The position numbers were made by a program, and so were the translations under genes. The notes beneath the pieces are model-generated. The model was not told the origin of the DNA. It worked only from the letters and a program-made list of their open reading frames with translations, and did no database searches. Positions 10,268 to 62,320 of a DNA stretch of 64,000 nucleotides are shown here, in pieces. The stretch is taken from the IMG/VR virus record IMGVR_UViG_3300017991_000074; one strand, written 5' to 3'. The first letter of the stretch is position 1. Each line of letters starts with the position of its first letter. The DNA is from an uncultured virus (IMG/VR IMGVR_UViG_3300017991_000074). Taxonomy: Duplodnaviria; Heunggongvirae; Uroviricota; Caudoviricetes.

Positions 10268-10876
10268 ATGGAGATCGAGAAGTGTAAGTATCGGCAGGCC
10301 AAGAGAATATTCGGTCATGATTCAGGCCATGTCTGGTGTCTTCGTGGTGGAGAGTGTGGACCTCCTCAGCCTAATGGTTCGGGCTGTCCTCGACCAAACA
10401 TGGATTGGCCTGAGCTTCTTGAGGATGTGGCGACGCGGGAGGTTGTGAAGGCGATTCGGGACGCGCCCGAATGCTCTGTAGCAGCTGACCGAGTGCTCGT
10501 TGATATGCTGGGGATGACGTCGCCGATGTTCCGTCGCGCCGTCTCCTACGTCAAGGGGCTGCACGGGATGGTGAGCGCTCTGAATGCATTTGTGGAGCGA
10601 TTCAAGGGCGAGGCTGGGGAGGCACGCGCCGAGCGCGACGCCCTGCAGGCGGAGTTGGAGCGGCTGGAGGCGGAGTATGATGATCTATCGCTAAAAGCCA
10701 GTAGGCGCGTGGCGGGGTGGATGGCCACCGTCGCCCGGCTCGAGGACCATTGCGCCGTCCTGGCAGACTATGTGTCGACCATAGTGCCTGCAGAAAATCG
10801 GCCTCCATGTGTCATGGAGGCGATCGAGTTCATGGCGGCGTACGACCCTATGGAGGATACCGATGAGGCCGAGTGA
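10268..10876 (+). CDS. hypothetical coiled-coil protein
   Basis: 202 aa ORF; heptad-like central region. Confidence 0.5.
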   Translation: MEIEKCKYRQAKRIFGHDSGHVWCLRGGECGPPQPNGSGCPRPNMDWPELLEDVATREVVKAIRDAPECSVAADRVLVDMLGMTSPMFRRAVSYVKGLHGMVSALNAFVERFKGEAGEARAERDALQAELERLEAEYDDLSLKASRRVAGWMATVARLEDHCAVLADYVSTIVPAENRPPCVMEAIEFMAAYDPMEDTDEAE

Positions 10877-11495
10877 GTGGATAGTGGAGACTCGCCTCGA
10901 CGGTGATCGACCCTTCCCGGAGGCCGTCGAGTGGCTGCAGGGATACAGCACGATGGCCGACGCCTGGACACAGTGTCACCGGGGCGACTGGATGATATGG
11001 GCGCTGCTGGCCGAGGGGATCGATGTGCCAGCGGCAGCCATCGAGCGGATCGTGGCACGAGCGATACGTCGCGGTCAGAAATCGCTGCGTGGCGTCCGTG
11101 CGCCGTGGGCTACCGCATGGCGCCGATGGGCTAGCCGGTGGCTATCGGGCGAGGATCGAACGGGGGCGGCGGCGAGGGAGGCGGCGGCGGACGCGGCGAG
11201 GGTGGCGTCGAGGGCGGCGTGGGCGGAGGCGGCGGGGGCGGCGGCGGACGCGGCGAGGGTGGCGTCGAGGGCGGCGTGGGCGGCGGGGGCGAGGGCGGCG
11301 TGGGCGTCGAGGGCGGCGGCGGGGGCGGCGGCGGACGCGGCGAGGGCGGCGGCGTGGGCGGCGGCGGCGTGGGCGGCGAGGGCGGCGACGGACGCGGCGG
11401 CTGCGTGGGCGGCGGCGGAGGCGGCTGAACTGCGCCTGCAGGCCCGCGATCTGCGGCGAGCTCTGCCAGAGTGGCCAGGAGGAGGAGACCGATGA
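10863..11495 (+). CDS. Ala/Trp/Arg-repeat hypothetical phage protein
   Basis: AWTQCHRGDWMIW N-terminus followed by AAWAA/ADAAR repeats, a pattern common in phage proteins. Confidence 0.7.
   Translation: MRPSEWIVETRLDGDRPFPEAVEWLQGYSTMADAWTQCHRGDWMIWALLAEGIDVPAAAIERIVARAIRRGQKSLRGVRAPWATAWRRWASRWLSGEDRTGAAAREAAADAARVASRAAWAEAAGAAADAARVASRAAWAAGARAAWASRAAAGAAADAARAAAWAAAAWAARAATDAAAAWAAAEAAELRLQARDLRRALPEWPGGGDR
11161..11425 (+). repeat. low-complexity GCG tandem repeat within coding sequence
   Basis: repeated gcggcggcggacgcggcgagggtggcgtcgagggcggcgtgggcgg units. Confidence 0.9.
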
Positions 11496-11885: not shown

Positions 11886-12524
11886 ATGAGCGAGGAATGG
11901 GAAACGTATGACGCCATGAAGGCTGAAATCCAACGCCTCACTGTCGCCCTGTCCGACGCCGACGCCGAGGTCGATCGCCTGAAGAGCCATGATGACCACA
12001 GGGAGTGGCGGATAGAGCGAGACCTCCGCATCGACCGTGAAGATCAGATCGCTCGCCTGCGCAGGGACCTCAAGGAGGCTGAGATCAACGAAGCAGCGAT
12101 AAGGTCCATGTATGTTCTCTCACAACGCCGCGAAAAAGACCTCCAAGCCCTGCCGGACACCGAAAACGCGACCGGAGGGATCATGAGGAAGGCCACAGTG
12201 AACTGGGCGGCGCTGAGCAAGCGCCTGGGCGTCGAGGTGAGATCTCATAGCGAACTTGCCGCAGCAATTGGCGCACGCGAGGTGTCGGCGGTTCTGGTAT
12301 TGGTTCAGACGATTCGCGAGCAAACGAGTTCTAGGGTGGTGTGGAGAATGAGCCTCACCGGGGCAGAGGCCAAAGCGATTCTTGGATGGCTTGACGGAGC
12401 TGATCATCAGCACACAAACAGTGTGGGGCGAAGCTCATTCAGGGTCGTACTCCCGGAATCGTTGCTAAAGAGGCTGACCGCTCACCTGATAGAAGTGGCC
12501 TTGAGAAAAAGCGCGAAGGCCTGA
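11886..12524 (+). CDS. hypothetical coiled-coil protein
   Basis: GGAGGAG Shine-Dalgarno before ATG 11886. Confidence 0.5.
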   Translation: MSEEWETYDAMKAEIQRLTVALSDADAEVDRLKSHDDHREWRIERDLRIDREDQIARLRRDLKEAEINEAAIRSMYVLSQRREKDLQALPDTENATGGIMRKATVNWAALSKRLGVEVRSHSELAAAIGAREVSAVLVLVQTIREQTSSRVVWRMSLTGAEAKAILGWLDGADHQHTNSVGRSSFRVVLPESLLKRLTAHLIEVALRKSAKA

Positions 12525-12853
12525 AGTCGTAGACATCCCTCCTCTAGGAAAAGACAGCTTCATCTCAAGATTCCAAAAAATCGCGCGGAAGGAAATCCAA
12601 GAAAAAGCGCGCCCCCGAAAAGAACTAAGAAAGTACTCCCTCTAAGAGAAGAGTACAGAGGAGCGATAGAGAGAATACGTAAAGTACCACACTCATCCCA
12701 AACCCTACCCCCAACATCTGCCACCATCCCCCTATGCTCCTGGAGTGACGTCTCTCGCAAGATCCCCGTGGATCTCCTGACACCCTCCTGGAAGCCCTTT
12801 GATTTCACCTGCTTACCTCGCAAAAGAAAGCCTTGAAACCGACAAGAAAATGT

Positions 12854-12882
12854 TAGACAAACTACCGAAATCTTACTATAAT
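12854..12882 (+). promoter_or_regulatory. strong sigma70-type promoter (probable early promoter)
   Basis: TAGACA-N17-TATAAT with an A-rich upstream tract. Confidence 0.85.
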
Positions 12883-13023
12883 GAAACCATGGACGGCAAC
12901 AAAAACCAGGAGGTAACCAAAATCACGAGGTCCTAAAAATCACTCGCAGACGATGCTCACTGACCATCGTTGGCCTGGGGGAAGGACCACCCCGAACAGC
13001 TCTCTGACAATCTAATCGTGCTA

Positions 13024-13352
13024 GATGGCATTCTCATCGTGCCTTCCTCCCGCGCAACGTATGGAGGACGCATGACCGAGAAAACCAACGAGGAATTGCG
13101 GCGACAAATTTTCGACGCAGTTTCCGAGCTAAGAGCTCGATATCGTGACGAAGATCGATACCCTCCCGATGGATTTCTTCGACACTATCACCGTCATGGT
13201 TGGTACATTTCCGAGTCAGGAATGAATCCTTCCAAGACGATGATGGGCGAGCGTGAAATCGCGGAATACGTCTACCTCGCATACCTCGAGCATTTCGAGG
13301 GAACCGTACCCGAGTAACTCTTCGTGGAGGAAGGTACGATGAGGATGCCATC
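13024..13352 (+). repeat. long-range inverted repeat 1 (arms 13024-13050 and 13326-13352) enclosing ORF 13072..13317
   Basis: 27 bp: 25 Watson-Crick and 2 G.U pairs. Confidence 0.95.
13072..13317 (+). CDS. hypothetical early protein (81 aa)
   Basis: GGAGG before ATG 13072; MTEKTNEELRRQIFDAV... Confidence 0.7.
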   Translation: MTEKTNEELRRQIFDAVSELRARYRDEDRYPPDGFLRHYHRHGWYISESGMNPSKTMMGEREIAEYVYLAYLEHFEGTVPE

Positions 13353-13355
13353 AAC

Positions 13356-14171
13356 GTTACGTTGCATCGAGAGGCTGGTCGTCGGGCTTTTCGAGGGAAA
13401 GCATGAACGTTTTCCCGGAAAGCGAGATGAAAGTCATGAACGCAACTGAGTTTCTAGCCGACATGATCGGAAGTGGTACGGACGACCAGACCAACGAGAC
13501 GCCTGATGAGGACGCTGTAGAGATGCAGAACTTCATCGCGCGCTGCCCCAACGGCGAGATCCTCGTCAATCGCCGGTCCGTGGACAGGCCGGCCTTCAAG
13601 TTCGTCGTGGTTGGCTACGAGCAAAACACGAGGGAACTCGGGGTCTTCCACTGGACCTCGAGTGACTCGAAGGCACGGCTCAAAGGCGTGATCACGGGGA
13701 ACCTGAAGAAGGCGGAGGAGCGTGGTGCGGCCCTGGTGGCCGACGACATCCACGTCCTGGAGGCCGAGGCAGTCGACGAGGTTCCCGAGGGAGCTCTGAC
13801 CTTCAAGCGGGGTCAGCGCCACTTCATGCCGCTCCCCCAGCTCTCGCTGGAGGAGAGGTTGGAGAATCTTCGAGAGAAGCTCCAGAGCGCCGAGACCGAC
13901 GAGGCCAGGGAGCGGCTGGAGGAGAGGATCACGAAGCTGGAGGAGCGCATCGTCAAGGCGAACCTGAGGGCCGAGGCAGAGATCGAGAAAGCTCTCGCCG
14001 AGGCAACCGCGGAAGACACCTTCCGGCTCAAGAAGGAGGCCGTCGCCGCGGCAAGGGAGCGAGGTCTCTCCCAGGAGAACGTGGTGAAGAACGACGCTGG
14101 CGAATGGGTCATCGTGGTTCGATAGAGAAGTGAAACCCTGCTCGACGACCAGTCTCTCGAGGCAATGTGGC
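13356..14171 (+). repeat. long-range inverted repeat 2 (arms 13356-13387 and 14140-14171) enclosing ORF 13403..14125
   Basis: 32 bp: 26 Watson-Crick, 5 G.U, 1 A.G mismatch. Confidence 0.95.
13403..14125 (+). CDS. hypothetical early protein with C-terminal coiled coil
   Basis: 240 aa ORF with strong codon bias; exact start uncertain. Confidence 0.75.
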   Translation: MNVFPESEMKVMNATEFLADMIGSGTDDQTNETPDEDAVEMQNFIARCPNGEILVNRRSVDRPAFKFVVVGYEQNTRELGVFHWTSSDSKARLKGVITGNLKKAEERGAALVADDIHVLEAEAVDEVPEGALTFKRGQRHFMPLPQLSLEERLENLREKLQSAETDEARERLEERITKLEERIVKANLRAEAEIEKALAEATAEDTFRLKKEAVAAARERGLSQENVVKNDAGEWVIVVR

Positions 14172-14181
14172 AAGGAGATCG

Positions 14182-14340
14182 ATGATGAAGGTGCGGATGT
14201 ACAACGAGCGAGGAATCCCAATAGTATTCACTGTTTCCCCCGAGGATCGGTTCTGTTTTGACCACGGGTTCTACTCGGAAGATAGCTGTGAGTTCTGCAC
14301 CGCTGAAGAGCTCGAGAGGGACGAAGAGGAGGAGGAGTAG
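14182..14340 (+). CDS. small acidic Cys/His protein (52 aa, not in ORF track)
   Basis: AAGGAG before ATG; MMKVRMYNERG...CFDHG...CEFC...EEEEE stop. Confidence 0.65.
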   Translation: MMKVRMYNERGIPIVFTVSPEDRFCFDHGFYSEDSCEFCTAEELERDEEEEE

Positions 14341-14341
14341 G

Positions 14342-14554
14342 ATGGCGTTTCCCGTAGCGATAGCGACCGTGATGCTGACCGAGACGAGGAAGGGAGAGGA
14401 GGACCAGCTCGAGTGCAGTCAGTGTTTCACGCTAAAGGCTACGTGTGACGTGGGGTTGGTGCAGAAGAGCTTGTTGACGAGGGATGACCACGATTCGGTA
14501 GAGTACTTGTTGGTGTGCCACACATGCCGCAAGAAAGCGAAGTTTTGGCCGTAG
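14342..14554 (+). CDS. small Zn-finger-like protein
   Basis: CSQC...CHTC; GGAGGAG upstream. Confidence 0.6.
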   Translation: MAFPVAIATVMLTETRKGEEDQLECSQCFTLKATCDVGLVQKSLLTRDDHDSVEYLLVCHTCRKKAKFWP

Positions 14555-14558
14555 GAGG

Positions 14559-14759
14559 ATGAGGATGGTAGAGATTGACCAGGCAGGGGCAACCGTGGAG
14601 GAAGCGGTGGGGATCATTGAAGAGAAGCAGGTCGTGTTCTCCGCTGTGAGTCTCCGTGGAGAGGGGATGGTTCTCCGCTGGGGGGAGGAGCTCGAGAACA
14701 GGATTGACGCCATGTCCCTGGGGGAAGCGCTCATCAAGCTCGCCACGTTCGTCGGCTAG
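14559..14759 (+). CDS. hypothetical protein
   Basis: AGGAGG upstream; follows the previous ORF directly. Confidence 0.55.
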   Translation: MRMVEIDQAGATVEEAVGIIEEKQVVFSAVSLRGEGMVLRWGEELENRIDAMSLGEALIKLATFVG

Positions 14760-14988
14760 CGACGATTTTCGACTTTTTCGCCGAAAAGTACGGTTTCCGT
14801 CTAGGGGAGGGTACAGCTCTCCGAGAAAACGCAAAAACTGAAAACGCTATGTAAGCGACTTTGTTAGGCCGGGCCTTGTAAGGTGCCCAACGACATGTAG
14901 GTTTTTGTCGTTATGGTCCTTGGGAGGGGTACCTGAGGGGCTCATGGAGGCGCTCATGGTGGAAGGAAGGGCTAAGCATAGGAATTGT

Positions 14989-15027
14989 TTGACTTTTTGT
15001 ACTGCCCTATCCTATACTTCAGTATAG
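14989..15027 (+). promoter_or_regulatory. sigma70-type promoter with overlapping palindrome
   Basis: TTGACT-N18-TATACT; CTATACT-tc-AGTATAG at 15012-15027. Confidence 0.65.
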
Positions 15028-15096
15028 TCCCTGAAGATCTCATTTCTTCAACTGGCGAGGGGCACATGCAGGTGCCCAAAGACATAGGAGAAAGAC

Positions 15097-15462
15097 ATGG
15101 TAGACGCCGGTGTTGCGAACCTATCCCCACCCGACCTATCGCGTATCCGTAAAGGACCCTACCCCCTCAAGAGGGGCGTGACCGACAAGGAGTGGCTGGA
15201 GACGTACCAGCTCTTCGTCGATCTCGCTCTTCTCACCGCGGAGGAGTATGAGCCAGAGGACTATCAGCTACTAGCCTGCTATGACATAGCGCACTATGAG
15301 TGGTGCCTGAGGAGACGGGACAAATGGCTCGAGCATTTCATCAACGCTTTCATCAATGGCTGGGCCACATCGATGAAAACGGCGGGCGGGATGAAAGACT
15401 TCATAGAGACCGGCATCGTACATAGCAAGGCCCTCTCTCTACGTCGTACCTCCGTTATATAG
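15097..15462 (+). CDS. hypothetical protein
   Basis: AGGAG before ATG; 121 aa. Confidence 0.7.
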   Translation: MVDAGVANLSPPDLSRIRKGPYPLKRGVTDKEWLETYQLFVDLALLTAEEYEPEDYQLLACYDIAHYEWCLRRRDKWLEHFINAFINGWATSMKTAGGMKDFIETGIVHSKALSLRRTSVI

Positions 15463-15650
15463 GACACACACGCATAGCCTCTGATGAATAACGCTCACCG
15501 ATAGGCCATTCGCCTCCCCCAGCCTTTCCGACAGGACGCGAAGCGATATGCCAGGCCCTGTTCTGCCTCGACTATGCCTCCGCTATGACCCCCTGTAATC
15601 GTTCCGACCATCATTGAGCTCGATACGCCCTGCAGGGGCCACCTCTACTC

Positions 15651-15780
15651 ACTTTGATTTGATTTTTGATTTCTATTGAATGTGGAGTGCCGACTTTGAT
15701 TTCTATTGGGTGGGTGGGTGTTGAATGTGGGGGTGGGGGTTGGAGCGTGGTGGTAGGGGGTAGGGGGTGGATGTGGGTGA
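15651..15780 (+). repeat. direct repeats followed by a G-run tract
   Basis: TTTGATTTCTATTG at 15665-15678 and 15695-15708, then eight runs of three or more G. Confidence 0.85.
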
Positions 15781-15843
15781 GATGACTACGGATTTCGTGT
15801 ATGGGTAGGATGTGTTAGTGTGGGAGATGAGGAGGGTGTGTGG

Positions 15844-16488
15844 ATGGGATTCGATAGGGATGAGGCGGTGAGATTGAATGAGGCTCATTGGATGGAGGGG
15901 AGGAGGGGACGGAAGGATTGGGGGGAGCGGTGTCCGGAGAGGATGTTGAGGAGGGACCGAGAGGATGAGCGGGCGATGTGCGAGATGATGTTAGAGATGG
16001 AGGATTTGCGGGATTGGATGGGGAGTGGGCAGAGGTGCAAGCGGGTGTTGGATGTGGGGTGTGGTGAGGGGCGAGCGAGGGGGGAGTTGTTGAGGAGGTT
16101 TGGTGGGGAGTATTTTGGGATTGAGTTATTGGAGGGGAAGGGGGGAGGGGAGGGTGTGCATCGGTATGCGTTGGAGGAGGTGCCTGAGGAGTGGGGTGGA
16201 TTGTTTGACGTGATTTGGGCGAACCATGTAATGGAGCATTGTTTGGATGCGGTGGAAGGTATGGGGCGGATTGGTACTCTCCTAGCGCCTGTGGGGATAT
16301 TTGGGATGGTGGTACCTGGGTTGCTGGACGATGTTGAGCCGGCGCATGTGAGTGTGATGGGGAGTGAGGATTGGCTACGCGTGATGCGAGGGGCTGGGTT
16401 GGTGCCTTTGCATGTGCGCTGGTTGCGGCGAGGCATAGTGGAGTTGCGGATTATCGCGGTACGGCGTGAGGATTATCCGAGGGGATGA
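15844..16488 (+). CDS. class I SAM-dependent methyltransferase
   Basis: VLDVGCGEG, FDVIWANHVMEH, LLAPVG; GAGGAGG upstream of ATG 15844. Confidence 0.85.
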   Translation: MGFDRDEAVRLNEAHWMEGRRGRKDWGERCPERMLRRDREDERAMCEMMLEMEDLRDWMGSGQRCKRVLDVGCGEGRARGELLRRFGGEYFGIELLEGKGGGEGVHRYALEEVPEEWGGLFDVIWANHVMEHCLDAVEGMGRIGTLLAPVGIFGMVVPGLLDDVEPAHVSVMGSEDWLRVMRGAGLVPLHVRWLRRGIVELRIIAVRREDYPRG

Positions 16489-18281
16489 TGGAGATGTTTG
16501 ACGAGCAGCGAGCAGCTGAGGAGGCGGCTGAAGAGGCGCTAGGGGACACGAGTACGATACCGCGTCGGGACTTGACGGACAAGGAGTGCGAGAGGTTGGC
16601 GGACGCCGTCCTGACCTTTTGCGAGAGGATGACTGGGATAGAGCTCTATCCCTATGAGAGGGAGTTTGGTTGGCGGGTCATATTTTCGCTATTGCGGGAG
16701 GATGCTGACGAGATCACGGCGTTGTTCTCGAGGCAGAGTGGTAAGACGGAGACGGTGGCGGTTGTCGTGGTTGGCTGCTGCGTGATTCTTCCGATTCTAG
16801 CTCGAGCCGTGCCCTGGGAGACGAGGATTTCAAAGTTCAAGGATGGTTTGTGGTGCGGGATTTACGCACCGAACTACGACCTGGCCGGGATTATGTGGAA
16901 GCGGATGAAGCTCCGCATGTACAGCCGGAGTGCGAAGACGACGCTTCTGGACCCCGACATCAACATGGATCTAACTGGGGCCGCGGAGAACTTGACCCTG
17001 GACAATGGGAGCTTTGTGGATTGCGGAAGCGCGTCGCCCCAGAGTGCGATTGAGGGTAAGACGTACCACCTCATTCTTCTCGAGGAGACCCAGGACATTT
17101 CGAGCCTGAAGATTCGGGCCTCGATTCATCCCATGGCTGCGGCGACCGCTGGGACCCTGGTGAAGATTGGAACTCCGAATACGGTGAAGAGTGAGTTCTA
17201 TGAGACCTGCCGACGCAATAAGCGACAGGATGTGGATACGGGGCGCGTGCGTCATCGCCATCGGCTGCATTATGAGTATGACTACACCGTGGTTCAGCGC
17301 TACAACCCGCGATATCGGAAGTATGCCGCGAAGGAGCGTCGGCGCTTGCAGGAGGACAGCGACGAGTTCCGGATGAAGTATCGCCTGCACTGGTTGCTTG
17401 AGCGGGGGATGTTCGTCAATCCGGACCAGTTCGATGACTGCGGCATCAAGGGTTCGAGCGACAATCTGGAAGTGATGAGGGTCAAGCGGGTGAAGCGCGG
17501 CCGTCCTCCGAAGATCAAGTTTATTCGGCCCCCAAATGTGATCACATTCGACCCGGATACGGAAGGCATGGTTGGCTCGATTGATATTGGGAAGGGAGAG
17601 AGCTCGACGGTCGTAACGGTGGGTCGTGTCTTCTGGGATGGTGGGGTGCAGTATGGGGATGAGACCCGCTATCCGATCCATGTTGCGAATTGGTTGGAGC
17701 TTTACGGTGATGACCATGAGATGCAGCATCCGCAGATCATCGACTTTCTGAAGAACTATCGTCTCTCGACTATCTGTGTCGATGCAACTGGTAAGGGCGA
17801 CCCGGTCTACAGTCGGTTGGCGGCAGAGCTGGACAAGTACAACATCTTCGTCATGCCGTTTTTGTTCTCGGCACAGTCGAAAGACTTGGGATACAAGATT
17901 CTTCACCAGGAGTTCAGCACGAGGCGGCTGACCTATCCGGCGGGGAACCAGGCCACGCGGTTGACGAAGTGGCAGCGGTTCTACAACCAGATGGTGGACC
18001 TCGAGAAGACGTGGCGTGGTCAGCGGATGATTGTCGAGAAGGCGAGAGACGACAAGCATGCGAAGGACGACTACTGCGATTCGTTGATGATGCTATGCTG
18101 GGCGGTGAACGCTGCTGGAACGATGGAGGTGGAGCAGGCGCCGAATCCGATGATTGGTCGAGCGGCTAGGTGGGAGATAGCTCGGTCGGTCAAGGAGGCT
18201 GGGGCGTGGTTCAGGCGAGCGGTCAATCCACGCGGGTCGATTCCGACTCAGCGTAGGAGTAAGAAAGGGAAATGGGATTGA
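16485..18281 (+). CDS. terL: terminase large subunit
   Basis: Walker A SRQSGKTET, Walker B LILLEE, GTP coupling motif, nuclease motifs SIDIG, VDATGKG, DDYCDS. Confidence 0.93.
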   Translation: MMEMFDEQRAAEEAAEEALGDTSTIPRRDLTDKECERLADAVLTFCERMTGIELYPYEREFGWRVIFSLLREDADEITALFSRQSGKTETVAVVVVGCCVILPILARAVPWETRISKFKDGLWCGIYAPNYDLAGIMWKRMKLRMYSRSAKTTLLDPDINMDLTGAAENLTLDNGSFVDCGSASPQSAIEGKTYHLILLEETQDISSLKIRASIHPMAAATAGTLVKIGTPNTVKSEFYETCRRNKRQDVDTGRVRHRHRLHYEYDYTVVQRYNPRYRKYAAKERRRLQEDSDEFRMKYRLHWLLERGMFVNPDQFDDCGIKGSSDNLEVMRVKRVKRGRPPKIKFIRPPNVITFDPDTEGMVGSIDIGKGESSTVVTVGRVFWDGGVQYGDETRYPIHVANWLELYGDDHEMQHPQIIDFLKNYRLSTICVDATGKGDPVYSRLAAELDKYNIFVMPFLFSAQSKDLGYKILHQEFSTRRLTYPAGNQATRLTKWQRFYNQMVDLEKTWRGQRMIVEKARDDKHAKDDYCDSLMMLCWAVNAAGTMEVEQAPNPMIGRAARWEIARSVKEAGAWFRRAVNPRGSIPTQRRSKKGKWD

Positions 18282-19440: not shown

Positions 19441-19626
19441 ATGAACAAGCCACTGACGCTCCCCCAGATTGCAGAGCTGGCGAACTGCGAGGAGAGCGAT
19501 GTTCGACGGGCCATGCGTCGAGGAGAGCTCCCGGCTCAGGAGGCTTACGTTGTTCGGGACTGGCTTCGGGGCCGATGGGAGCGCCAGGTCCGACGCATGC
19601 TCAGAGAGGAGATGGGACGTGGGTAG
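19441..19626 (+). CDS. small HTH DNA-binding protein
   Basis: LTLPQIAELANCEESDVRRAMRRGELPA. Confidence 0.6.
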   Translation: MNKPLTLPQIAELANCEESDVRRAMRRGELPAQEAYVVRDWLRGRWERQVRRMLREEMGRG

Positions 19627-20032
19627 GAAACAGACTCCGGAGACCAAGGCGAAGATCAGTGAGAGCGTGAAGCGTCGATTGGAGCAGAAGAAGATGGAGG
19701 TCAGCGATGCTCGAGCTCGGGAGCTGGCCGGCCACTTCGCCACCGGCCATCCCGACAAGAAGATGCCCGAGCGGGTGCGCAACTACGGCGACATGGCTCG
19801 AGCTGAGGGGAAGGTTCCGGAGCGTCGCGAGAAGAAGTCCCCCAGTCAAGAGGAACGGGAGGAACGGGCAAACACGACGGCGGAGAAACTCGGACTTCGT
19901 CGCGCGGGTGACATAAAAGGCCGCAAGGAAGGTGAGCCTGGTGGTAAAGTAGAGGCGTCGAGCATGAGTGCTCCGGGGCTCTCTCCCAAGGAGATGACGT
20001 CTCTCGGATTCACGCCGACGCAAGGGAGGTAG
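19619..20032 (+). CDS. basic protein with NUMOD3-like motif
   Basis: GRKQTPETKAKISES; GTG start after GAGGAG. Confidence 0.55.
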   Translation: MGRKQTPETKAKISESVKRRLEQKKMEVSDARARELAGHFATGHPDKKMPERVRNYGDMARAEGKVPERREKKSPSQEEREERANTTAEKLGLRRAGDIKGRKEGEPGGKVEASSMSAPGLSPKEMTSLGFTPTQGR

Positions 20033-53241: not shown

Positions 53242-56196
53242 ATGCCAGGCAACGTTCCCAACGTGAGCAGGGACAGCTTTCAGTTCGCGAAGATGTATGA
53301 CGGCGTGGTCCTTCAGCAGGGAGTTCCAATTCCGGACTCGGACTGGAATGAGCTCGACGACATCCGTCGAATCATGTCCATTCTGGAGGGCATCTACTTC
53401 TGGGGTGAGAATCTGCTCTTCGCTCCGGTTGGAGCTGGAAGTCTTCCCGGGTTCTATCCGTTGGGAACCGGCGCGACCAACGACTTCACTCTGAGCGCGG
53501 GCGTCGCCTTGGTCGGAGGTGTTCTGGTACCGACCACCTTGGATGAACCGCCGGCGTTGATCACCTACGACGATGCGTCTCAGCGCAACTTCATCGTGAA
53601 TAACGGTGTGGTGGAGTCTTTCGGCGCCGGAGTTCTGACGGAGTCAACGAAGAACTGGCAGGCCTTCCATGATCTGCTGGCGACGGCGAACCATGGGGCG
53701 TGCCGGGTGAGGTTCACCTCGGGCACGGAGAGCGGGAACGAGTACACGATCACCGCGTACACCGCCACGACGCTGACCCTGAGCGGCGGGTCTCCCAGTA
53801 CGGGAGACACGTACATGGTGTTGCCGCCTGAGCTTACGACTCCGGGTGGAGCCCGCACCGATGAGGTTTACCTCATGGTGTGGTGGGAGGACACGGCGGC
53901 TGAAGAGGATACGAGCATCGAGCATCCAGGTCTCGGTGTGGAGACCGCGCATCGGTTGCAGCGTCGATGGTGTGTCAGGGTCACGGAAAACGGGAGTACG
54001 CCCTCGACTCCGTCCAACCACGGTTTCGGAGTACGGTATCTCCAGATCGGAACGCTCAATCGGACAGCGTCTGCGACCATCAGTGTTGGCGAGGTGGTGG
54101 GGGAGCTAGCGCTGATTGGGAGGACCTATGCTGATCACCTGGCTCAGGGTGGAGCGCACGGGTTCACGGGCAACTACACCGCTGCAGCTGTGGCCGCGGG
54201 GAACAACGGGGGACTGGGGACAGGGATCGCGGACATCGATGCCGCGTTTCAAGCCACGGATGACGCTGTCATCCGACGCCGGGCCTTCACGGCAACGATC
54301 ACGGGAGGAGCCTACTCGAGCGGTGGGGACTATGAGGGAGCGTCAGCGATCGACAACCTTGAGTCCTTCGCTGATGACGGCACCTTCTTCCTTCGTCGAG
54401 GACTCTACACCTGGAGCACGGCTACGAGTCTGACCAAGGACGTCAGTGTGGTCGGAGAGCTTCTGGGTGAAGCGAGCGATCCCTGCAAGATGAACGTGCC
54501 TGTGGGAGCGTCAGCGGATTTCTCGCTCAAGGGGAAGTTTTCTCAGCTTCAGCTCGGGACGAACCACGCCAGCTATCTGTACGACGTCGCTGTCGGCGAC
54601 CATCTGCGTCTCGAGGATGTCGAGGTGGACGGGGGTGCGCTCAAGGTCACCGGAGGTCACATCGACTGGCTTCGCGGGAAGTTGATCTCGGCTTCTGGAC
54701 CCACGGCCAATTCGGGCCTGTATATGACCGATACAGGCACTACCGATCCGCCGCACGGTGTTTTCGAGGATGTGCATTTCAACGGACCGGGACCAAGCGC
54801 GAGCTCTCCGACAGCAGCGGTCCACATCGATTCGGTCAAGGCCAATCCAGCCACAGATCAGGAAGGACTGACGTTCAAGAACTGCTTGTTCGAGGCGACC
54901 TCCGGGGCCCAAGCGGTTCGACTCTCGGATGTAGAGACGCCGGTTCTTTTTGAGAACTGTGTGTTCATCGGTGGCGGTGCTGGTGCAGAGGCTTTCTGGG
55001 GCGGCGGCAGTGATCGGGTGACGTGCATCAACTGCCAGTTCTACAACAGCGGGGGTCGGACTTTCCGCTTCGGTGGTGCTGGAACGTTCATCAATTGCCA
55101 CATCTACGACGGCGGGCCTGCGCACAACGAGCCGGTGTTCTCCTGTCGTTCAGAGGATTCGGAGAAAGGACTCTACTTCTTCAGCTCTTCGGTCCGTTTG
55201 GACGGTGGGTGTCACGGCGCCACGATTCTTCCCTGCGTCGAGTTTGGAGCGGTGGACAACTCCATCACCTGCCTGAATCTGGTGGTGGACGGCTTCATGG
55301 TCATGAACAAGGCCACCTATGCTTCGCGCTACAGCATGGTTGCGATGCATGGTTCCTCGAGCCTCTACGGGAAGGCGTCCTACAGCAACATCCTGGTCAA
55401 CCAGAATGCGAAGCAGGCACAGGCTGACCGTTCCACCTACGGTGTGATGGGACGCTCGGCCATCGTCGAGGTTGCCGGCGTTGTGTCGTCCAACCGTCCT
55501 CCAGTGATGGTGGAGAACCTGTCGATTCTCAATCTCGAGGACCCGAACGCGGCTGCCGTCGACGATGGCTCGATGTTCGTTGCGAGGAACGCTATCATTC
55601 GGGGGCTGATCCTCGACGCGACGAGTTCTCCCTCTGGAACCGGGACCACTGGGGCGGTGGACGGCTTGATCAAGCTCATTCAGGACGTAACGCTCTACGA
55701 TCTTCAGCTGTTCCAGACGCAGTATAACGAGATGGCGGCCGGAGGCTCGGTGCGCGCTATCCAACTGGGACAAGACTGCCATCTGAGGGGCGGTACCTTG
55801 TGGCAGTGGCCCTCTCCTGCAATCGACTCGCTCATCGCCCTTCTTGGGGATCGGGCTGGGGTGCATGGTGTCAAGCTCTTCGACACCAATGCGCATTCGA
55901 CGACTCCGATTCACAACAACCCGAGCGGTATTGACACGGTCTTCGAGAATAATCAGCTGGAGCTTGGAGCTCGAGGAGCCACTCTTCTTCAGCCGGGAGT
56001 TCAGTCGAGGACCAACGGCAATACGATCAAGGCTACCAGCATCACGAATCCGGTGATCAATGCCGGAGCGAATGCCCGAGTCTTGATGACCGGAAATGTT
56101 CTTCTCAATGCTGCTGCCACGGTTCCGACTATCACCGCTACCGGTACTGGAGCGGTAGTCGGTGCCGACAACGTTCTCGCCGCGAACGCCACCTAA
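53242..56196 (+). CDS. tail spike/fibre with DUF6519-like N-terminus and beta-helix body
   Basis: SRDSF...YDGVVLQQGVPIPDSDWNE; VYLMVW; ETAHRLQ; repeated FxNC motifs. Confidence 0.75.
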   Translation: MPGNVPNVSRDSFQFAKMYDGVVLQQGVPIPDSDWNELDDIRRIMSILEGIYFWGENLLFAPVGAGSLPGFYPLGTGATNDFTLSAGVALVGGVLVPTTLDEPPALITYDDASQRNFIVNNGVVESFGAGVLTESTKNWQAFHDLLATANHGACRVRFTSGTESGNEYTITAYTATTLTLSGGSPSTGDTYMVLPPELTTPGGARTDEVYLMVWWEDTAAEEDTSIEHPGLGVETAHRLQRRWCVRVTENGSTPSTPSNHGFGVRYLQIGTLNRTASATISVGEVVGELALIGRTYADHLAQGGAHGFTGNYTAAAVAAGNNGGLGTGIADIDAAFQATDDAVIRRRAFTATITGGAYSSGGDYEGASAIDNLESFADDGTFFLRRGLYTWSTATSLTKDVSVVGELLGEASDPCKMNVPVGASADFSLKGKFSQLQLGTNHASYLYDVAVGDHLRLEDVEVDGGALKVTGGHIDWLRGKLISASGPTANSGLYMTDTGTTDPPHGVFEDVHFNGPGPSASSPTAAVHIDSVKANPATDQEGLTFKNCLFEATSGAQAVRLSDVETPVLFENCVFIGGGAGAEAFWGGGSDRVTCINCQFYNSGGRTFRFGGAGTFINCHIYDGGPAHNEPVFSCRSEDSEKGLYFFSSSVRLDGGCHGATILPCVEFGAVDNSITCLNLVVDGFMVMNKATYASRYSMVAMHGSSSLYGKASYSNILVNQNAKQAQADRSTYGVMGRSAIVEVAGVVSSNRPPVMVENLSILNLEDPNAAAVDDGSMFVARNAIIRGLILDATSSPSGTGTTGAVDGLIKLIQDVTLYDLQLFQTQYNEMAAGGSVRAIQLGQDCHLRGGTLWQWPSPAIDSLIALLGDRAGVHGVKLFDTNAHSTTPIHNNPSGIDTVFENNQLELGARGATLLQPGVQSRTNGNTIKATSITNPVINAGANARVLMTGNVLLNAAATVPTITATGTGAVVGADNVLAANAT

Positions 56197-56200
56197 AGAC

Positions 56201-56229
56201 TTGCAGGATTTCGTTCTCCCGGTTACCCT
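56201..56229 (+). promoter_or_regulatory. putative promoter
   Basis: TTGCAG-N17-TACCCT. Confidence 0.45.
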
Positions 56230-56332
56230 TCCGATGTGGGTTGGGGTTGATGTAACTGGTTGATCCCCTCTTATATTGGCCCAGCCCACCACAGTTGTCC
56301 TCAGGACTTGACTGAGGGGAAGGAGGAAGACG

Positions 56333-56866
56333 GTGGGAGCAATGCTCACGAAGCTGAACCTGATTGCGCTCTCTGCCAGCGGTGACGCTGCAGAGAAGCT
56401 TCGGCTTCAGTTTCAGAACATGAGGGAGGACATCGCGGCCGGGTTGGGGGGTGGTGACGCCACCATCTTCCACAAGACGCAGCTGGTCGATTCCCTCGAG
56501 ACGACGGCGGATGCGACGGACCTCGCCACGGTTCTGGTGCTGGCGAACTCGCTCAAGGCGTTGATGAACACCCACCTGGCTTCGACCGGGTTTCACGGTG
56601 TCCATCTGGCCGCCTCGGCCGAGACGATCGCGGCAGCAGATGCGACGAACGCGGCGACGTCCTACACCTTGCTCAACGAGCTCAAGGCGGACTACAACAC
56701 GCACAACAGTGAGGCAGGCGTCCACATCAACAACGACACCACCAACGCCGTGTCCTCAGCGGACGCCACCGACCTTGCGACCAGCCTCACGCTGGCCAAC
56801 GAGATCAAGGCGGACTTCAACGCCCACATCGTGGCTGTCATGTCGACGCCGCTGGTGGAGCTGTAG
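56333..56866 (+). CDS. abundant virion / decoration-like protein with three internal repeats
   Basis: ADATDLAT..LAN.LKA..N.H three times; AAGGAGG Shine-Dalgarno; capsid-like codon bias. Confidence 0.7.
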   Translation: MGAMLTKLNLIALSASGDAAEKLRLQFQNMREDIAAGLGGGDATIFHKTQLVDSLETTADATDLATVLVLANSLKALMNTHLASTGFHGVHLAASAETIAAADATNAATSYTLLNELKADYNTHNSEAGVHINNDTTNAVSSADATDLATSLTLANEIKADFNAHIVAVMSTPLVEL

Positions 56867-56898
56867 TAGCGGCCTGAGAGCCGAGAAAGGAATCGAAG

Positions 56899-57285
56899 AT
56901 GGCACTGAAAGTTGGATTCGACATCTTCGCCGGCACCTCGCAGGCCGGCACGGATGCAGGCATCCCGGGCAATCTGCAGGCCGAGACGGTCGTAGCAGGC
57001 AAGCACGGCATTCGGGTGCAGCGCAACAGCGACAACCAGTACTGGAACAACAGCTCCGGCGCGTTCCAGGCAGGCGCGACCGCCGAGGCGCTCGAGCTCT
57101 ACTTCCGAGGCAGCGTCTCCGCTCGAGGCATCCAGCCCGCGAAGATGCGTCTCGTGGAGAAGCTCCCCAAGGAGCTGCTGGCAGCGGCCACCGCCGCGGG
57201 TCTGACGATCCTCGTCTACCCGGAGGGTGAACAGGCCACCGGTGCTCCCACCACCGCCTCGATCGTCACCGACCATCTCCCCTAG
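56899..57285 (+). CDS. hypothetical protein (probable virion protein)
   Basis: AAAGGA Shine-Dalgarno; strong codon bias. Confidence 0.65.
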   Translation: MALKVGFDIFAGTSQAGTDAGIPGNLQAETVVAGKHGIRVQRNSDNQYWNNSSGAFQAGATAEALELYFRGSVSARGIQPAKMRLVEKLPKELLAAATAAGLTILVYPEGEQATGAPTTASIVTDHLP

Positions 57286-57303
57286 GCCCAGGTCCCCGAG
57301 ATC

Positions 57304-57352
57304 GGCTTCGCCCAGGCACGGGGCTTCCACCAGTTCCGTGTCTGGGGGAGCC
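57304..57352 (+). other. intergenic 21 bp hairpin (processing site or terminator-like)
   Basis: ggcttc(g)cccaggcacggggct / agttccgtgtctgggggagcc with 4 G.U pairs and a 6 nt loop; no U-tract. Confidence 0.75.
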
Positions 57353-57385
57353 CCCCTGTGGTAGACTCCATTCGGGAGGATTCCA

Positions 57386-57781
57386 ATGGAGCAGATCACG
57401 GGTCTCATCTTTTCATGGCAATTTCTGATGTTCGGTGTGGTTACTGCGCTGATCATCGTGATGTTCATGAAGCTCGGTGGTTTGATGTGGCGGGCGAAGA
57501 AGCTGCGGGGAGTGGTTCGCTTCTTCGATGCGCTCAAGCCGTGGGTGCCCTGGGCACTCGGTGGTGGGCTTGGAGCGATCCCTCTGTGGCCTCGGCCTGA
57601 GGCTGTCCTCGAGCTTCCCGAGCAGTACCAGTACTTCACAATGATCATTCTCGGGATTGTCGCGGGGGCGTTCTACGAGAGGATCTGGAAGGGCGTCCGC
57701 CAGGTCATCGAGGCTCGAGGGATCGACTTGGACCTCGACCTCACTCCGAAGGAGCAGAAGAAAAAGAAGAACGGGGGGTAA
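57386..57781 (+). CDS. putative holin
   Basis: 131 aa, about three hydrophobic segments, basic C-terminus. Confidence 0.6.
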   Translation: MEQITGLIFSWQFLMFGVVTALIIVMFMKLGGLMWRAKKLRGVVRFFDALKPWVPWALGGGLGAIPLWPRPEAVLELPEQYQYFTMIILGIVAGAFYERIWKGVRQVIEARGIDLDLDLTPKEQKKKKNGG

Positions 57782-57835
57782 GGATGTCATGGGAACCGTG
57801 GAAGAAGGGGTCTCCGGTTCCGCCAAGGAGGGGCC

Positions 57836-58183
57836 ATGAGAGTGTTGAAGGCGATCGGCCGCTGGATGAAGAGCCATGTCTGGGAGACGATCGCGGCCTT
57901 CGGTGCGGGACTGGCGGTGATACTAGGAGCGGCGTTTCTTCTCCAGCGCAGAGCGACACAGAGAGCACGCGACGAAGGGCGTATCTCCATGGTCAAAGGC
58001 ATGGTGAAAGAGCTCCAGTCGAGGAGCCGGGCTCTTGAGGAGTTGGATGAGCAGGATGAAGAAGTTGTCGAGGAGATTGAGCATGAACGTGAAGTGCTCA
58101 AGGACGAGATCGAATCTGCCAGAGATACTGCTGGGCTCACGGACGAAGAAGCCCTCGAAGCGTTCTCACGCCTTGGGTTTTGA
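57836..58183 (+). CDS. membrane-anchored coiled-coil protein (spanin-like)
   Basis: N-terminal TM segment then coiled coil, after the holin. Confidence 0.5.
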   Translation: MRVLKAIGRWMKSHVWETIAAFGAGLAVILGAAFLLQRRATQRARDEGRISMVKGMVKELQSRSRALEELDEQDEEVVEEIEHEREVLKDEIESARDTAGLTDEEALEAFSRLGF

Positions 58184-60381: not shown

Positions 60382-60509
60382 TTTACAAACTCATATGCTT
60401 CCAATACCCTAATCTCAACCTTCACCCCTCCCACTGTAGGAGAGGTAGGCCAGTTCAAGTTTTTGCCGCTTGGACAACGGTTGACAGGACGACAAGAATG
60501 CGAAAGAAT
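60382..60509 (+). promoter_or_regulatory. two tandem putative promoters of the replication operon
   Basis: TTTACA-N17-TACCCT (60382-60410) and TTGACA-N17-AAGAAT (60481-60509). Confidence 0.55.
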
Positions 60510-60513
60510 CATA

Positions 60514-60630
60514 GTTACCTCCAGGTACGAGAAAGCCTCGTTGGGGTGATCGCGGTTCCCGCCAGAAAGCATTCTTGTCTCCGCGAATCCACCGGCAAAC
60601 CAACGGGGTTTTCTTGTGCCTGGAGGTAGT
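60514..60630 (+). promoter_or_regulatory. 31 bp leader stem occluding the initiator Shine-Dalgarno
   Basis: arms 60514-60544 and 60600-60630: 25 Watson-Crick and 6 G.U pairs, no mismatch. Confidence 0.9.
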
Positions 60631-60632
60631 CC

Positions 60633-61640
60633 ATGACCTCGCAGCAGTGCGTCCAGCTCCTCTCCTCGATTCTCCAAGAGCCGCAGATCGCGGCCCCCGA
60701 CAAGGTTCTCCTCTCCTTCATCGCCACTGAGCAGGCTGAGGGACGGACGGTTATCCATCGGGCCCTTGCTGACCTGGTCGACATCACGGCAACCAGCGTG
60801 GCACGTCGCTTGAGGAAGCTGCGAGAGCGGGGGTTTGTCGAGTGCGAGCGGGTGGGGAAGCATGCGTGGGAGTATCTCTTTGTGGGGTTTGATGTCCCCG
60901 CTTCCTCTGAGGAAATGGTTCCCTTTGTTGGGGACCCCATGACCCTCCACCCTGAGGGAAGTGGAGGGTCTCAAGTGGAGGAGAATCCTGCCCCTCCACC
61001 CCCTGTAAATGTATATGATCTATTTACTGGGGAGAGAATACTCTTGCGTAAAGCTACGCTTGCGGATGGCGGTAGCCCTGCAGGCTCTCCCCTAGCACCG
61101 ACACAGGAGGATGATGTGGCAGTGGTGACAGGACCGGACAGCCGGCTCAAGGAGATTCTTGAGCAGAAGGTGGCGAACGTGGGGAACAAGAAGCGGGTCT
61201 CACCGAAGAAGGATCGGTTCAAGGTCAGGGGAGGACCGACGAATCGGTGGGAGCGTTTCAAGGCGAAGAAGCCTTCCGAGTACAAGGTCCCTGACATGGA
61301 GATGCTGTACAAACAGACCTGGGAGAAAGAACAACTCTCGGGTCGCCCTTTTTCTTGGACGGGCAAGGATCAGGGTCAGGTGAAGCGCATGATCGTGGAC
61401 CAGGGGGCCGAGGCAGTCGCGAAGCTGATCGTGTATGTCTTGTCGAATTGGGACAAGATCAAACGGCGCTACCGATTGACGGGGACGCCGAGCCCGGCTG
61501 TGATCTATGGCTACAGACGGTCGTGGATGCCGGAGGCAATTGATGGGCCTCCGAAAGAGGTGTTGCGGGGGCCAGCCGAGTGGACGGGGGATGCGGACGA
61601 GGATGACGAGCTCGACGAGACGGGCTGGGGAGGTATCTGA
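60633..61640 (+). CDS. putative replication initiator (N-terminal winged HTH)
   Basis: ALADLVDITATSVARRLRKLRERGFVE; upstream of a DnaC-like gene. Confidence 0.7.
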   Translation: MTSQQCVQLLSSILQEPQIAAPDKVLLSFIATEQAEGRTVIHRALADLVDITATSVARRLRKLRERGFVECERVGKHAWEYLFVGFDVPASSEEMVPFVGDPMTLHPEGSGGSQVEENPAPPPPVNVYDLFTGERILLRKATLADGGSPAGSPLAPTQEDDVAVVTGPDSRLKEILEQKVANVGNKKRVSPKKDRFKVRGGPTNRWERFKAKKPSEYKVPDMEMLYKQTWEKEQLSGRPFSWTGKDQGQVKRMIVDQGAEAVAKLIVYVLSNWDKIKRRYRLTGTPSPAVIYGYRRSWMPEAIDGPPKEVLRGPAEWTGDADEDDELDETGWGGI

Positions 61641-61989: not shown

Positions 61990-62320
61990 GGCACAGAGGG
62001 CCATGCTCGAGGTGATTGCCCGTGGGGCGAACAAGGGGAAGACGGAGCGGTGCATTGAGTTGGCAGCGGAACATGACGCCTACATCGTGTGCCCTATGCG
62101 TGTGGATGCGTTGAGAATCGTCCGGATGGCGGAGGCCATGGGGCTGAACATTCGATTTCCGCTTACGGTGTATGAGTTCTGGAGTGGGCAATACTGCGGA
62201 AAGAACATTCGAGGATTCATCTTCGATGACGTCGATCGGATCTTGGCCGCGGTGTCAAAGACGGTTCCGATTCTCGGTGTGTCAATAACTCTGGAGGAGC
62301 CAGGGTGCCTATCGAGCTGA
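61982..62320 (+). CDS. small degenerate P-loop-like protein
   Basis: RGANKGKT ... FIFDDVD. Confidence 0.55.
   Translation: MARAQRAMLEVIARGANKGKTERCIELAAEHDAYIVCPMRVDALRIVRMAEAMGLNIRFPLTVYEFWSGQYCGKNIRGFIFDDVDRILAAVSKTVPILGVSITLEEPGCLSS

What the first reader, a model, noticed from the sequence alone, without database searches (positions are those of the whole stretch)
13024..14171. Two early genes each enclosed in its own long-range G.U-rich RNA panhandle
Seen: GATGGCATTCTCATCGTGCCTTCCTCC (13024-13050) pairs with 13326-13352 over 27 bp, and the loop holds exactly one Shine-Dalgarno plus ORF (13072..13317). Three nt later, GTTACGTTGCATCGAGAGGCTGGTCGTCGGGC (13356-13387) pairs with 14140-14171 over 32 bp and encloses ORF 13403..14125. 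The two stems share no sequence. Seven of the 8 non-Watson-Crick positions are G.U on the + strand, which points to selection on a single-stranded + sense molecule and argues against transposon or invertase ends. Both lie just downstream of the strongest promoter in the window. Established: RNase III excises 16S and 23S rRNA from long-range stems of this geometry, whereas T7 early mRNA uses local hairpins. Inference: the phage releases single-gene mRNAs with paired ends, possibly stabilised or circularised. I do not recall this being described for phage protein-coding genes, but have not searched.
Basis: partly seen in the sequence, partly recalled or inferred. Interest (0 to 1): 0.88.

Follow-up and report, generated by a model that had tools for sequence, protein, structure and literature searches.

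The report
Phage genes enclosed by RNA helices
In an uncultured marine phage, two neighbouring small genes each sit between two stretches that should pair into a long helix in the messenger RNA, probably to control when each gene is translated and to let a host enzyme cut it out as a separate message, but no RNA data exist to show this.

Summary
Arms 13024-13050/13326-13352 form 27 pairs (25 Watson-Crick, 2 G.U). Arms 13356-13387/14140-14171 form 32 positions (26 WC, 5 G.U, 1 A.G). They score 66 and 68 in my scan, against maxima of 43-49 in 12 shuffled windows. All four arms lie in non-coding spacers and enclose exactly one ribosome-binding site plus ORF each.

All 7 transition-type mismatches are G.U on the + strand. 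Helix B is predicted only in + sense RNA (pair probability 0.957, against 0.005 antisense). This favours an RNA element over a DNA one.

New here: the 5' arm of helix A alone folds onto gene 1's own SD and AUG (unpaired probability 0.001). The 3' arm, which mimics that ribosome-binding site, releases them (0.20 and 0.63).

RNase III cutting is a reasonable inference but is not shown, and circularisation has no support. No covariation test was possible: both genes are ORFans, the stems are invariant in 4 runs, and relatives lack such stems.

This scan has noted the same architecture in at least 7 other phage genomes. Those are unverified AI notes. My literature searches found no published description. 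Verdict: a new variant of long-range RNase III/UTR-pairing devices. Interest is moderate.

The parts
12854..12882 (+). Sigma-70-like promoter match, TAGACA-17-TATAAT (11 of 12). The inferred transcript start is near 12889.
   Evidence: best consensus match in the window on either strand. Consensus match only.
12889..13023 (+). Inferred 5' leader upstream of helix A.
   Evidence: Inference from the promoter position.
13024..13050 (+). 5' arm of helix A. It also acts as an anti-RBS: without the 3' arm it pairs locally with SD1, AUG1 and the first codons (13063-13089).
   Evidence: 27 bp; local hairpin -27.1 kcal/mol; SD1 and AUG1 unpaired probability 0.001 without the 3' arm.
13063..13317 (+). 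SD1 (GGAGG, 13063-13067) and gene 1 (ATG 13072 to TAA 13317, 81 aa). ORFan.
   Evidence: only its own cluster; weak coding signal, best in this frame (GC3 0.52).
13326..13352 (+). 3' arm of helix A. It mimics an RBS (GGAGGAAGGUACGAUGA) and displaces the 5' arm from the real RBS.
13356..13387 (+). 5' arm of helix B. It starts 3 nt after helix A.
13393..14125 (+). SD2 (GAGGGA, 13393-13398) and gene 2 (ATG 13403 to TAG 14125, 240 aa, coiled-coil-rich C-terminal half). ORFan. SD2 sits in its own 8-bp local hairpin.
   Evidence: strong coding signal (GC3 0.82)..
14140..14171 (+). 3' arm of helix B. It abuts SD3 (AAGGAG, 14172-14177) of gene 3.
14172..14759 (+). Genes 3-5 of the same presumed transcript (14182/14185-14340, 14342-14554, 14559-14759). 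No helix encloses them.
   Evidence: no further helix with both arms intergenic above chance.

Best explanation
The two inverted repeats are elements of the + sense messenger RNA. They are not DNA sites. A transcript that most likely starts at the sigma-70-like promoter at 12854-12882 folds so that the spacers before and after gene 1, and before and after gene 2, pair into two abutting helices of 27 and 32 bp. Each helix closes one ribosome-binding site plus ORF into its own loop.

In unit A the helix is also a switch. Until the 3' arm is transcribed, the 5' arm folds back onto gene 1's SD and AUG and blocks them. The 3' arm, which mimics that RBS, then captures the 5' arm and frees the RBS. 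Gene 1 would therefore become translatable only once its message is complete.

Near-perfect dsRNA of this length is the natural substrate of bacterial RNase III. The helices are therefore probably cut on both strands, as the leader-trailer helices of rRNA operons are. That would release single-gene messages whose two ends stay base-paired and so resist end-dependent decay.

Shown: the sequence anatomy, its statistical excess, its strand polarity, and the predicted folds and switch. Inferred: transcription from that promoter, folding in vivo, RNase III cleavage and its consequences.
For: - Helices score 66 and 68, against shuffle maxima of 43-49 in 12 shuffles.
- All 4 arms lie in non-coding spacers: 12 nt before SD1, 8 nt after stop 1, 15 nt before AUG2, 14 nt after stop 2, and 0 nt before SD3.
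- 7 of 7 transition-type mismatches are G.U on the + strand. With the third long helix at 60514-60630 the count is 13 of 13, with no A.C. Composition-corrected p is 0.017 and 5e-4.
- Both helices appear in the MFE and centroid folds of 12889-14340.
- Pair probabilities are 0.968 (A) and 0.957 (B) in + sense RNA, and 0.919 and 0.005 in antisense RNA.
- Switch in unit A: SD1 and AUG1 unpaired probability is 0.001/0.001 in 3 of 3 transcripts ending before 13326, and 0.20/0.63 in 2 of 2 that include the 3' arm.
- The arm-RBS duplex (-18.7 kcal/mol) beats 98.6% of 2000 random genomic 27-mers and 96.1% of 1000 shuffled arms.
- Published precedent: B. subtilis RNase III cuts long-range intramolecular mRNA duplexes of 10-36 bp with up to 505 nt between the cuts (PMC11780869, section 24 read).
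- As a lead only: this scan noted the same architecture in other phages, in some with co-varying arms.
Against: - No RNA data: no RNA run is listed for this DNA, so transcription, folding and cleavage are all unobserved.
- No covariation test was possible. Both genes match only their own cluster, and the stems are letter-identical in the contigs of 4 runs.
- Relatives found through the terminase lack such helices. Distinct loci were scanned. Two near-complete genomes, G002 and G003, have maxima of 46 and 45. The feature is therefore not conserved in the wider family.
- The RBS switch is seen only in unit A. In unit B the arm-RBS duplex is not unusual (6.75% of random 32-mers do as well), and SD2 stays in its own hairpin in every context.
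- Even for unit A the arm-RBS statistic is modest (1.4-3.9%).
- The host is unknown, so its RNase III and that enzyme's antideterminants are unknown.
- The promoter is only a consensus match.
Confidence: 0.58

Rival explanations
1. The helices form in the RNA but are not cut. They would act only as folding insulators and translation gates, making each cistron an independent folding domain (and, in unit A, delaying translation until the message is complete) without releasing monocistronic mRNAs.
For: The predicted switch in unit A needs no nuclease. Each helix isolates the enclosed RNA in the predicted fold. Long-range pairing to the RBS is shown to control expression in B. subtilis without invoking RNase III as the primary effector (PMC12697547, abstract read).
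Against: Near-perfect helices of 27-32 bp are longer than folding insulation needs and match the published size range of RNase III substrates (10-36 bp). From established knowledge, most bacteria have RNase III and it cuts such dsRNA with little sequence specificity. Unit B shows no gating.
Confidence: 0.2
2. These are DNA-level inverted repeats. They could be ends of invertible segments (invertons) or terminal inverted repeats of two miniature mobile elements, each carrying one ORF.
For: The arm lengths (27-32 bp) are in the range of recombinase sites and transposon ends. Each unit carries one ORFan, as a mobile cassette might. Gene 1 has atypical GC3 (0.52, against 0.62-0.87 in 7 reference genes), which fits foreign origin.
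Against: - 7 of 7 mismatches are G.U on one strand.
- There are no target-site duplications.
- The arms do not recur elsewhere in the window. In IMG/VR, arm A has 0 hits and an 18-mer of arm B has 2 single, unpaired hits.
- No recombinase or transposase was found among 80 ORFs; the IstB-like ATPase at 62305 is far away.
- Arm A5' is also complementary to the RBS, which a DNA site has no reason to be.
Confidence: 0.07
3. The repeats are a functionless by-product of how the cassettes were acquired, for example palindromic junctions left by illegitimate or template-switch recombination. They are recent and not yet decayed.
For: The feature is absent from relatives. The genes are ORFans. The 3.2-kb module 12534-15732 is one contig at depth 11.2 in run X4 while its flanks are at about 4-5, which suggests a module shared between strains.
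Against: Two independent repeats with unrelated sequences each bracket one RBS plus ORF within 0-15 nt. The one-sided G.U polarity implies purifying selection on pairing after divergence. A third long helix with the same polarity lies behind another sigma-70-like promoter.
Confidence: 0.08
4. After excision the paired ends are ligated, giving circular single-gene mRNAs.
For: The geometry would bring the 5' and 3' ends together after a staggered cut (inference only).
Against: No RNA ligase or RtcB-like family was found among the 80 ORFs scanned, although about 35 kb of the genome was not seen. From established knowledge, RNase III leaves 5'-phosphate and 3'-OH ends with a 2-nt overhang inside a duplex, and that is not a known ligase substrate in bacteria. 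No data bear on this.
Confidence: 0.03

Closest known systems
Leader-trailer (processing) helices flanking 16S and 23S rRNA in bacterial rrn operons, cut by RNase III (PMC6582327, start of abstract seen in the listing)
   Same: Sequences before and after a whole functional unit pair over hundreds of nucleotides into a long helix. Successive units in one precursor each have a private helix.
   Different: The enclosed units here are protein-coding cistrons with their own RBS, in a phage. Cleavage is not shown. Helix A also controls RBS access.
[quoted passage not shown]
   Same: mRNA duplexes of 10-36 bp whose strands lie up to 505 nt apart and are cut with 2-bp stagger. The size and geometry match helix A (27 bp, arms 275 nt apart) and are close to helix B (32 bp, 752 nt).
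   Different: In the section I read, those duplexes are not described as bracketing a cistron from spacer to spacer, nor as arrayed unit by unit. They are host genes, not phage genes.
T7 early mRNA RNase III sites
   Same: A phage polycistronic transcript made by the host polymerase is divided into single-gene messages, with helices left at the ends.
   Different: T7 sites are local hairpins with internal loops lying between genes. Here the two strands of each helix lie on opposite sides of a gene, and the helices are nearly perfect.
icaR 5'-3' UTR pairing in S. aureus (PMC3868564, abstract read)
   Same: The two untranslated ends of one mRNA pair. An anti-SD motif is involved, and the duplex is an RNase III substrate.
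   Different: In icaR the 3' UTR pairs with the SD and represses. Here the long-range helix removes the anti-SD arm from the SD and should activate.
PeSL cassettes of T4-type phages (PMC2839356, abstract read; PMC4122927, start of abstract seen in a listing)
   Same: Small regulatory sequences flank ORFan genes in variable regions of myovirus genomes and are linked to modular exchange.
   Different: PeSLs are repeated promoter plus local terminator stem-loops that act through DNA recombination. The arms here are unique, inverted and long-range.
hok mRNA fold-back (fbi/tac) pairing of type I toxin-antitoxin systems
   Same: The 5' and 3' ends of a full-length mRNA pair, and a metastable 5' hairpin governs translation during transcription.
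   Different: In hok the long-range pairing keeps the mRNA inactive until its 3' end is trimmed. The proteins here are not small hydrophobic toxins, and no antisense RNA is evident.

Membership tests
rrn-type RNase III processing helices | Sequences flanking the whole unit pair into a helix of about two turns or more | tested here: met
   27 bp and 32 bp, with arms 275 and 752 nt apart. Pair probabilities are 0.968 and 0.957.
rrn-type RNase III processing helices | Staggered RNase III cuts on both strands (2-nt 3' overhang) | not testable with these tools
   No RNA run is listed, and contigs cannot show RNA ends.
rrn-type RNase III processing helices | The enclosed unit is a structural RNA | tested here: not met
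   The loops hold protein-coding ORFs with SD sequences. Rfam finds nothing.
T7-type intercistronic RNase III hairpins | A local hairpin between two cistrons | tested here: not met
   The partner of each spacer arm lies on the far side of a gene. The 85-nt and 59-nt spacers hold no strong local hairpin in the full fold.
icaR-type 5'-3' UTR repression | A 3' UTR motif pairs directly with the SD and blocks initiation | tested here: not met
   The SD (13063-13067) lies outside helix A. Forming the helix raises SD and AUG accessibility from 0.001 to 0.20 and 0.63.
Invertible DNA segments (invertons) | Inverted repeats flank the segment | tested here: met
Invertible DNA segments (invertons) | A site-specific recombinase is encoded nearby | tested here: not met
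   None among the 80 ORFs of the 64-kb window. About 35 kb of the genome was not seen.
Invertible DNA segments (invertons) | Both orientations are present in the DNA | tested here: inconclusive
   No joints appear in the contigs of 4 runs, but contigs drop rare variants.
MITE / mini-IS with terminal inverted repeats | Target-site duplication and multiple copies | tested here: not met
   The flanks are unrelated. The arms are unique in the window. In IMG/VR there are 0 hits and 2 single unpaired hits.
PeSL regulatory cassettes | Repeated promoter plus local terminator stem-loop as direct repeats around ORFans | tested here: not met
   Only one promoter match lies ahead of both units. Arms A and B share no sequence.

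The most novel reading that the evidence does not exclude
Stem-enclosed cistrons may be a general, so far unpublished design of phage accessory-gene cassettes. Each ORFan would travel with a private pair of spacer arms. The arms would (i) insulate its RNA folding from whatever neighbours it lands between, (ii) hold its ribosome-binding site shut until the whole cistron is transcribed, and (iii) direct host RNase III to release it as a message with clamped ends. On this reading the unit of horizontal exchange and the unit of RNA processing are the same object. The present locus would be a two-unit instance of the arrays that this scan has noted in at least 7 other uncultured phages.
Probability: 0.3. 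Interest if true: 0.8.

Novelty: new variant of a known kind. Interest (0 to 1): 0.55.

Why it matters
If these helices work as inferred, phages would have a second way to divide an operon transcript into single messages, besides the T7-type local hairpin. This way resembles rRNA maturation and couples message completion to translation. It would also give a sequence-only signature (private spacer arms around an ORF, with G.U polarity) for spotting expression-ready accessory cassettes in uncultured phages. It could further serve as a natural design for context-independent gene cassettes in synthetic operons. This single locus adds an in-silico case of the anti-RBS/RBS-mimic switch, but no experimental or comparative proof.

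Tried and rejected
- RNA evidence: no RNA holder is listed for 12800-14400.
- DNA variation: contigs of 4 DNA runs laid on 12000-16500 gave no joints and no differing letters inside the stems. Contigs cannot exclude rare inversions.
- Covariation: the 240-aa and 81-aa proteins match only their own clusters. A viral-contig search with the 240-aa protein found no relative. The phage collection gave no DNA match.
- Relatives found through the terminase:
  - Viral contigs gave 8 loci and metagenome contigs 6 loci (L011 and L013 repeat records L001 and L003). Genome contigs gave none.
  - Scans of these loci found no helix above 47.
  - The score-42 stem in L016 has its 3' arm inside an ORF.
  - The score-47 stem in L012/L007 has both arms inside ORFs.
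- Whole relatives: G002 (97 kb) and G003 (113 kb) have maxima of 46 and 45. Two weak abutting stems at G003 64898-66170 enclose no convincing ORF.
- The nearest held record, G001 (8.4 kb), does not match the region.
- An outer inverted repeat between the C-rich tract near 12698 and the G-rich tract near 15753 is not significant: score 25, against a shuffled mean of 19.8 and maximum of 31.
- RNAduplex between whole intergenic regions was uninformative, because long inputs always give huge energies.
- After filtering for helices with both arms intergenic, only 5 further hits remained, scoring 30-34, about what chance predicts.
- Rfam found no family at gathering score in the whole window, and only one chance-level hit (E 0.25) in 12400-16000.
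- Function of the enclosed proteins: Pfam, PHROGs, PADLOC and the ESM Atlas gave nothing usable.
- Literature: the searches found no description of cistron-enclosing helices in phage operons. Subscription journals are not covered.

Full report
**What is there**

The window is most of an uncultured tailed phage genome. The longest contig carrying the same proteins is 99,083 bp. Nearly all genes lie on the + strand.
- Upstream of 12.5 kb lie sugar-nucleotide enzymes and methyltransferases.
- From 15.8 kb onward lie a methyltransferase, the large terminase, portal, capsid, sheath, tube, baseplate and fibre genes.
- Between these blocks is a 3.3-kb stretch of small ORFan genes with unusually long spacers.

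- Helix A, 13024-13050 with 13326-13352: 27 positions, 25 Watson-Crick and 2 G.U.
- Helix B, 13356-13387 with 14140-14171: 32 positions, 26 Watson-Crick, 5 G.U and 1 A.G.

**Is it more than chance?**

I scanned the whole window for gapless helices, allowing G.U pairs and loops up to about 3.2 kb.
- The two helices score 66 and 68. A third, local helix at 60514-60544/60600-60630 scores 70. The next best hit scores 45.
- Twelve dinucleotide-preserving shuffles of the window gave maxima of 43-49.
- When both arms must lie in non-coding DNA (10% of the window), only these three helices stand out. The 5 other hits score 30-34, about what chance predicts.

**Anatomy**

All four arms lie in spacers, and each pair encloses one ribosome-binding site plus one ORF.
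- Arm A5' ends 12 nt before SD1 (GGAGG, 13063-13067; ATG 13072).
- Arm A3' starts 8 nt after the stop at 13315-13317.
- Three nucleotides later arm B5' begins. It ends 15 nt before ATG 13403.
- Arm B3' starts 14 nt after the stop at 14123-14125 and abuts the SD of gene 3.
- Arms A and B are unrelated in sequence, and neither unit has flanking direct repeats.
- Gene 2 has a strong coding signature (GC3 0.82). Gene 1's is weaker but best in the annotated frame (GC3 0.52).
- The best sigma-70-like match in the window (11 of 12) lies at 12854-12882. The two other + strand matches (10 of 12) lie at 14989-15018 and at 60481-60509; the latter ends 5 nt before the third helix.

**RNA or DNA?**

Several independent features point to + sense RNA.
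- All 7 transition-type mismatches in helices A and B are G.U on the + strand. They would be A.C on the other strand. Counting the third helix (6 G.U, no A.C), the total is 13 of 13. Allowing for the G-rich + strand, the probabilities are about 0.017 and 5e-4.
- Duplex energies are -52.2 and -56.4 kcal/mol on + sense, against -43.5 and -40.3 on antisense.
- In a partition-function fold of 12889-14340 the helices have mean pair probabilities of 0.968 and 0.957. In the antisense RNA helix B drops to 0.005, while helix A keeps 0.919. Both helices are in the MFE and centroid structures.
- DNA-level readings fare poorly:
  - there are no target-site duplications;
  - there are no other copies of the arms in the window or in IMG/VR, where arm A has 0 hits and an 18-mer of arm B has 2 single unpaired hits, about what chance gives;
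  - no recombinase or transposase was found among 80 ORFs;
  - no inversion joints appear in the contigs of 4 DNA runs, although contigs cannot exclude rare forms.

**A switch in unit A**

The inner end of arm A5' reads CCUUCCUCC, and arm A3' begins GGAGGAAGG...AUGA. That closely resembles the true ribosome-binding site of gene 1 (GGAGGACGCAUGA).
- Folded without the 3' arm, arm A5' pairs with SD1, AUG1 and the first codons in a local hairpin of -27.1 kcal/mol.
- In 3 of 3 transcripts ending before 13326, the unpaired probability of SD1 and of AUG1 is 0.001.
- In 2 of 2 transcripts that include the 3' arm, the 5' arm moves into the long helix, and the values rise to 0.20 and 0.63.
- The arm-RBS duplex (-18.7 kcal/mol) is stronger than for 98.6% of 2000 random 27-mers of the window and 96.1% of 1000 shuffled arms. 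That is suggestive, not overwhelming.
- Unit B shows no such relation: 6.75% of random 32-mers do as well, and SD2 stays in its own 8-bp hairpin in every context.
- A 36-codon frame starts at the mimic AUG (13339) but has no coding signature.
- Two earlier notes of this scan had raised the idea of competing local hairpins and completion-gated translation for other phages. I read them before running these folds.

**What could not be tested**

- Both proteins match only their own clusters among 5.8 billion sequences.
- The stems are letter-identical wherever the phage was found.
- Relatives reached through the terminase (60-78% identity) have no comparable helices, either upstream of the terminase or anywhere in two near-complete genomes (maxima 46 and 45).
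- The feature therefore belongs to this lineage or to these cassettes, not to the phage family.
- No RNA run holds the phage, so transcript ends are unknown.

**Mechanism**

Best reading (confidence 0.58): the helices are + sense RNA structures that close each cistron into a loop. Helix A also gates gene 1's translation until the cistron is complete. Both are probably RNase III substrates.

The cleavage step rests on precedent and has not been observed. [quoted passage not shown] The geometry copies the leader-trailer helices of rRNA operons (PMC6582327, start of abstract seen in the listing). Cutting would leave each message with its ends held in about half a helix, which from established knowledge should shield it from end-dependent decay.

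Rivals:
- Helices that act without cleavage: 0.2.
- DNA-level repeats: 0.07.
- Functionless acquisition scars: 0.08.
- Circular mRNAs: 0.03. No ligase was seen among the 80 ORFs.

**Relation to what is known**

The locus works like rRNA processing helices and like T7's division of its early transcript, but it is a member of neither.
- The enclosed units are protein genes.
- The helices are not local hairpins.
- It inverts the logic of icaR, where 3'-5' UTR pairing hides the SD (PMC3868564, abstract).
- It differs from PeSL cassettes, which are repeated promoter-terminator units acting through DNA recombination (PMC2839356, abstract).

Six literature searches found no description of phage cistrons individually enclosed by long-range helices. 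The library lacks most subscription journals.

This scan has noted the same design in at least 7 other uncultured phage genomes, some reportedly with co-varying arms and whole-unit exchange. Those are unverified AI notes, and I did not check them.

**Verdict**

- The finding is a new variant of a known kind.
- Interest is moderate (0.55). The class would be notable if real and general, but this two-unit instance has no comparative or RNA evidence. Its own contributions are the strand-polarity statistics and the predicted RBS switch.

Noticed in passing
window 60481-60640: A third long helix of 31 pairs (25 WC, 6 G.U, no A.C; loop 55 nt) begins about 5 nt after a sigma-70-like match (TTGACA-17-AAGAAT, 60481-60509). 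Its 3' arm contains the SD (GGAGGU, 60624-60629) of the HTH-protein gene 60633-61640, so the 5' end of that transcript should mask its own ribosome-binding site.
   Followed up: partly
window 12534-15732: In run X4 this 3.2-kb module is a single contig at depth 11.2, while the flanking contigs are at about 4-5. This suggests that the module is shared by two or more strains whose flanks differ.
   Followed up: no
window 12560-12830 and 15640-15900: The module is bordered by a C/A-rich non-coding tract on the left and a G/T-rich tract on the right. The right tract has runs such as GGGTGGGTGGG and GGGGGTAGGGGGT, which could form G-quadruplexes on the + strand just upstream of the methyltransferase-terminase genes. 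Their apparent inverted-repeat relation is not significant.
   Followed up: partly
window 12889-12936: The inferred transcript start coincides with an ATG (12889) that opens a 15-codon frame without an SD. This could be a leaderless mini-ORF in the leader before helix A.
   Followed up: no
window 13339-13449: The RBS mimic in arm A3' is followed by a 36-codon frame that runs through arm B5' and past the start of gene 2. It has no coding signature.
   Followed up: partly
window 10809-11495: An alanine-rich ORF with repeated AAADAARVASRAAWA-type units lies in the most GC-rich part of the window (GC 0.63). The opposite strand and the other frames are also open.
   Followed up: no
G003 contig 54671-57982 (relative; locus L008): The terminase of this complete 113-kb relative matches in three separated pieces within one 1141-aa open frame. 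That is what one or two inteins would give.
   Followed up: no
window 19469-20032: An ORF with a NUMOD3 motif, typical of homing endonucleases, sits between the terminase and portal genes.
   Followed up: no
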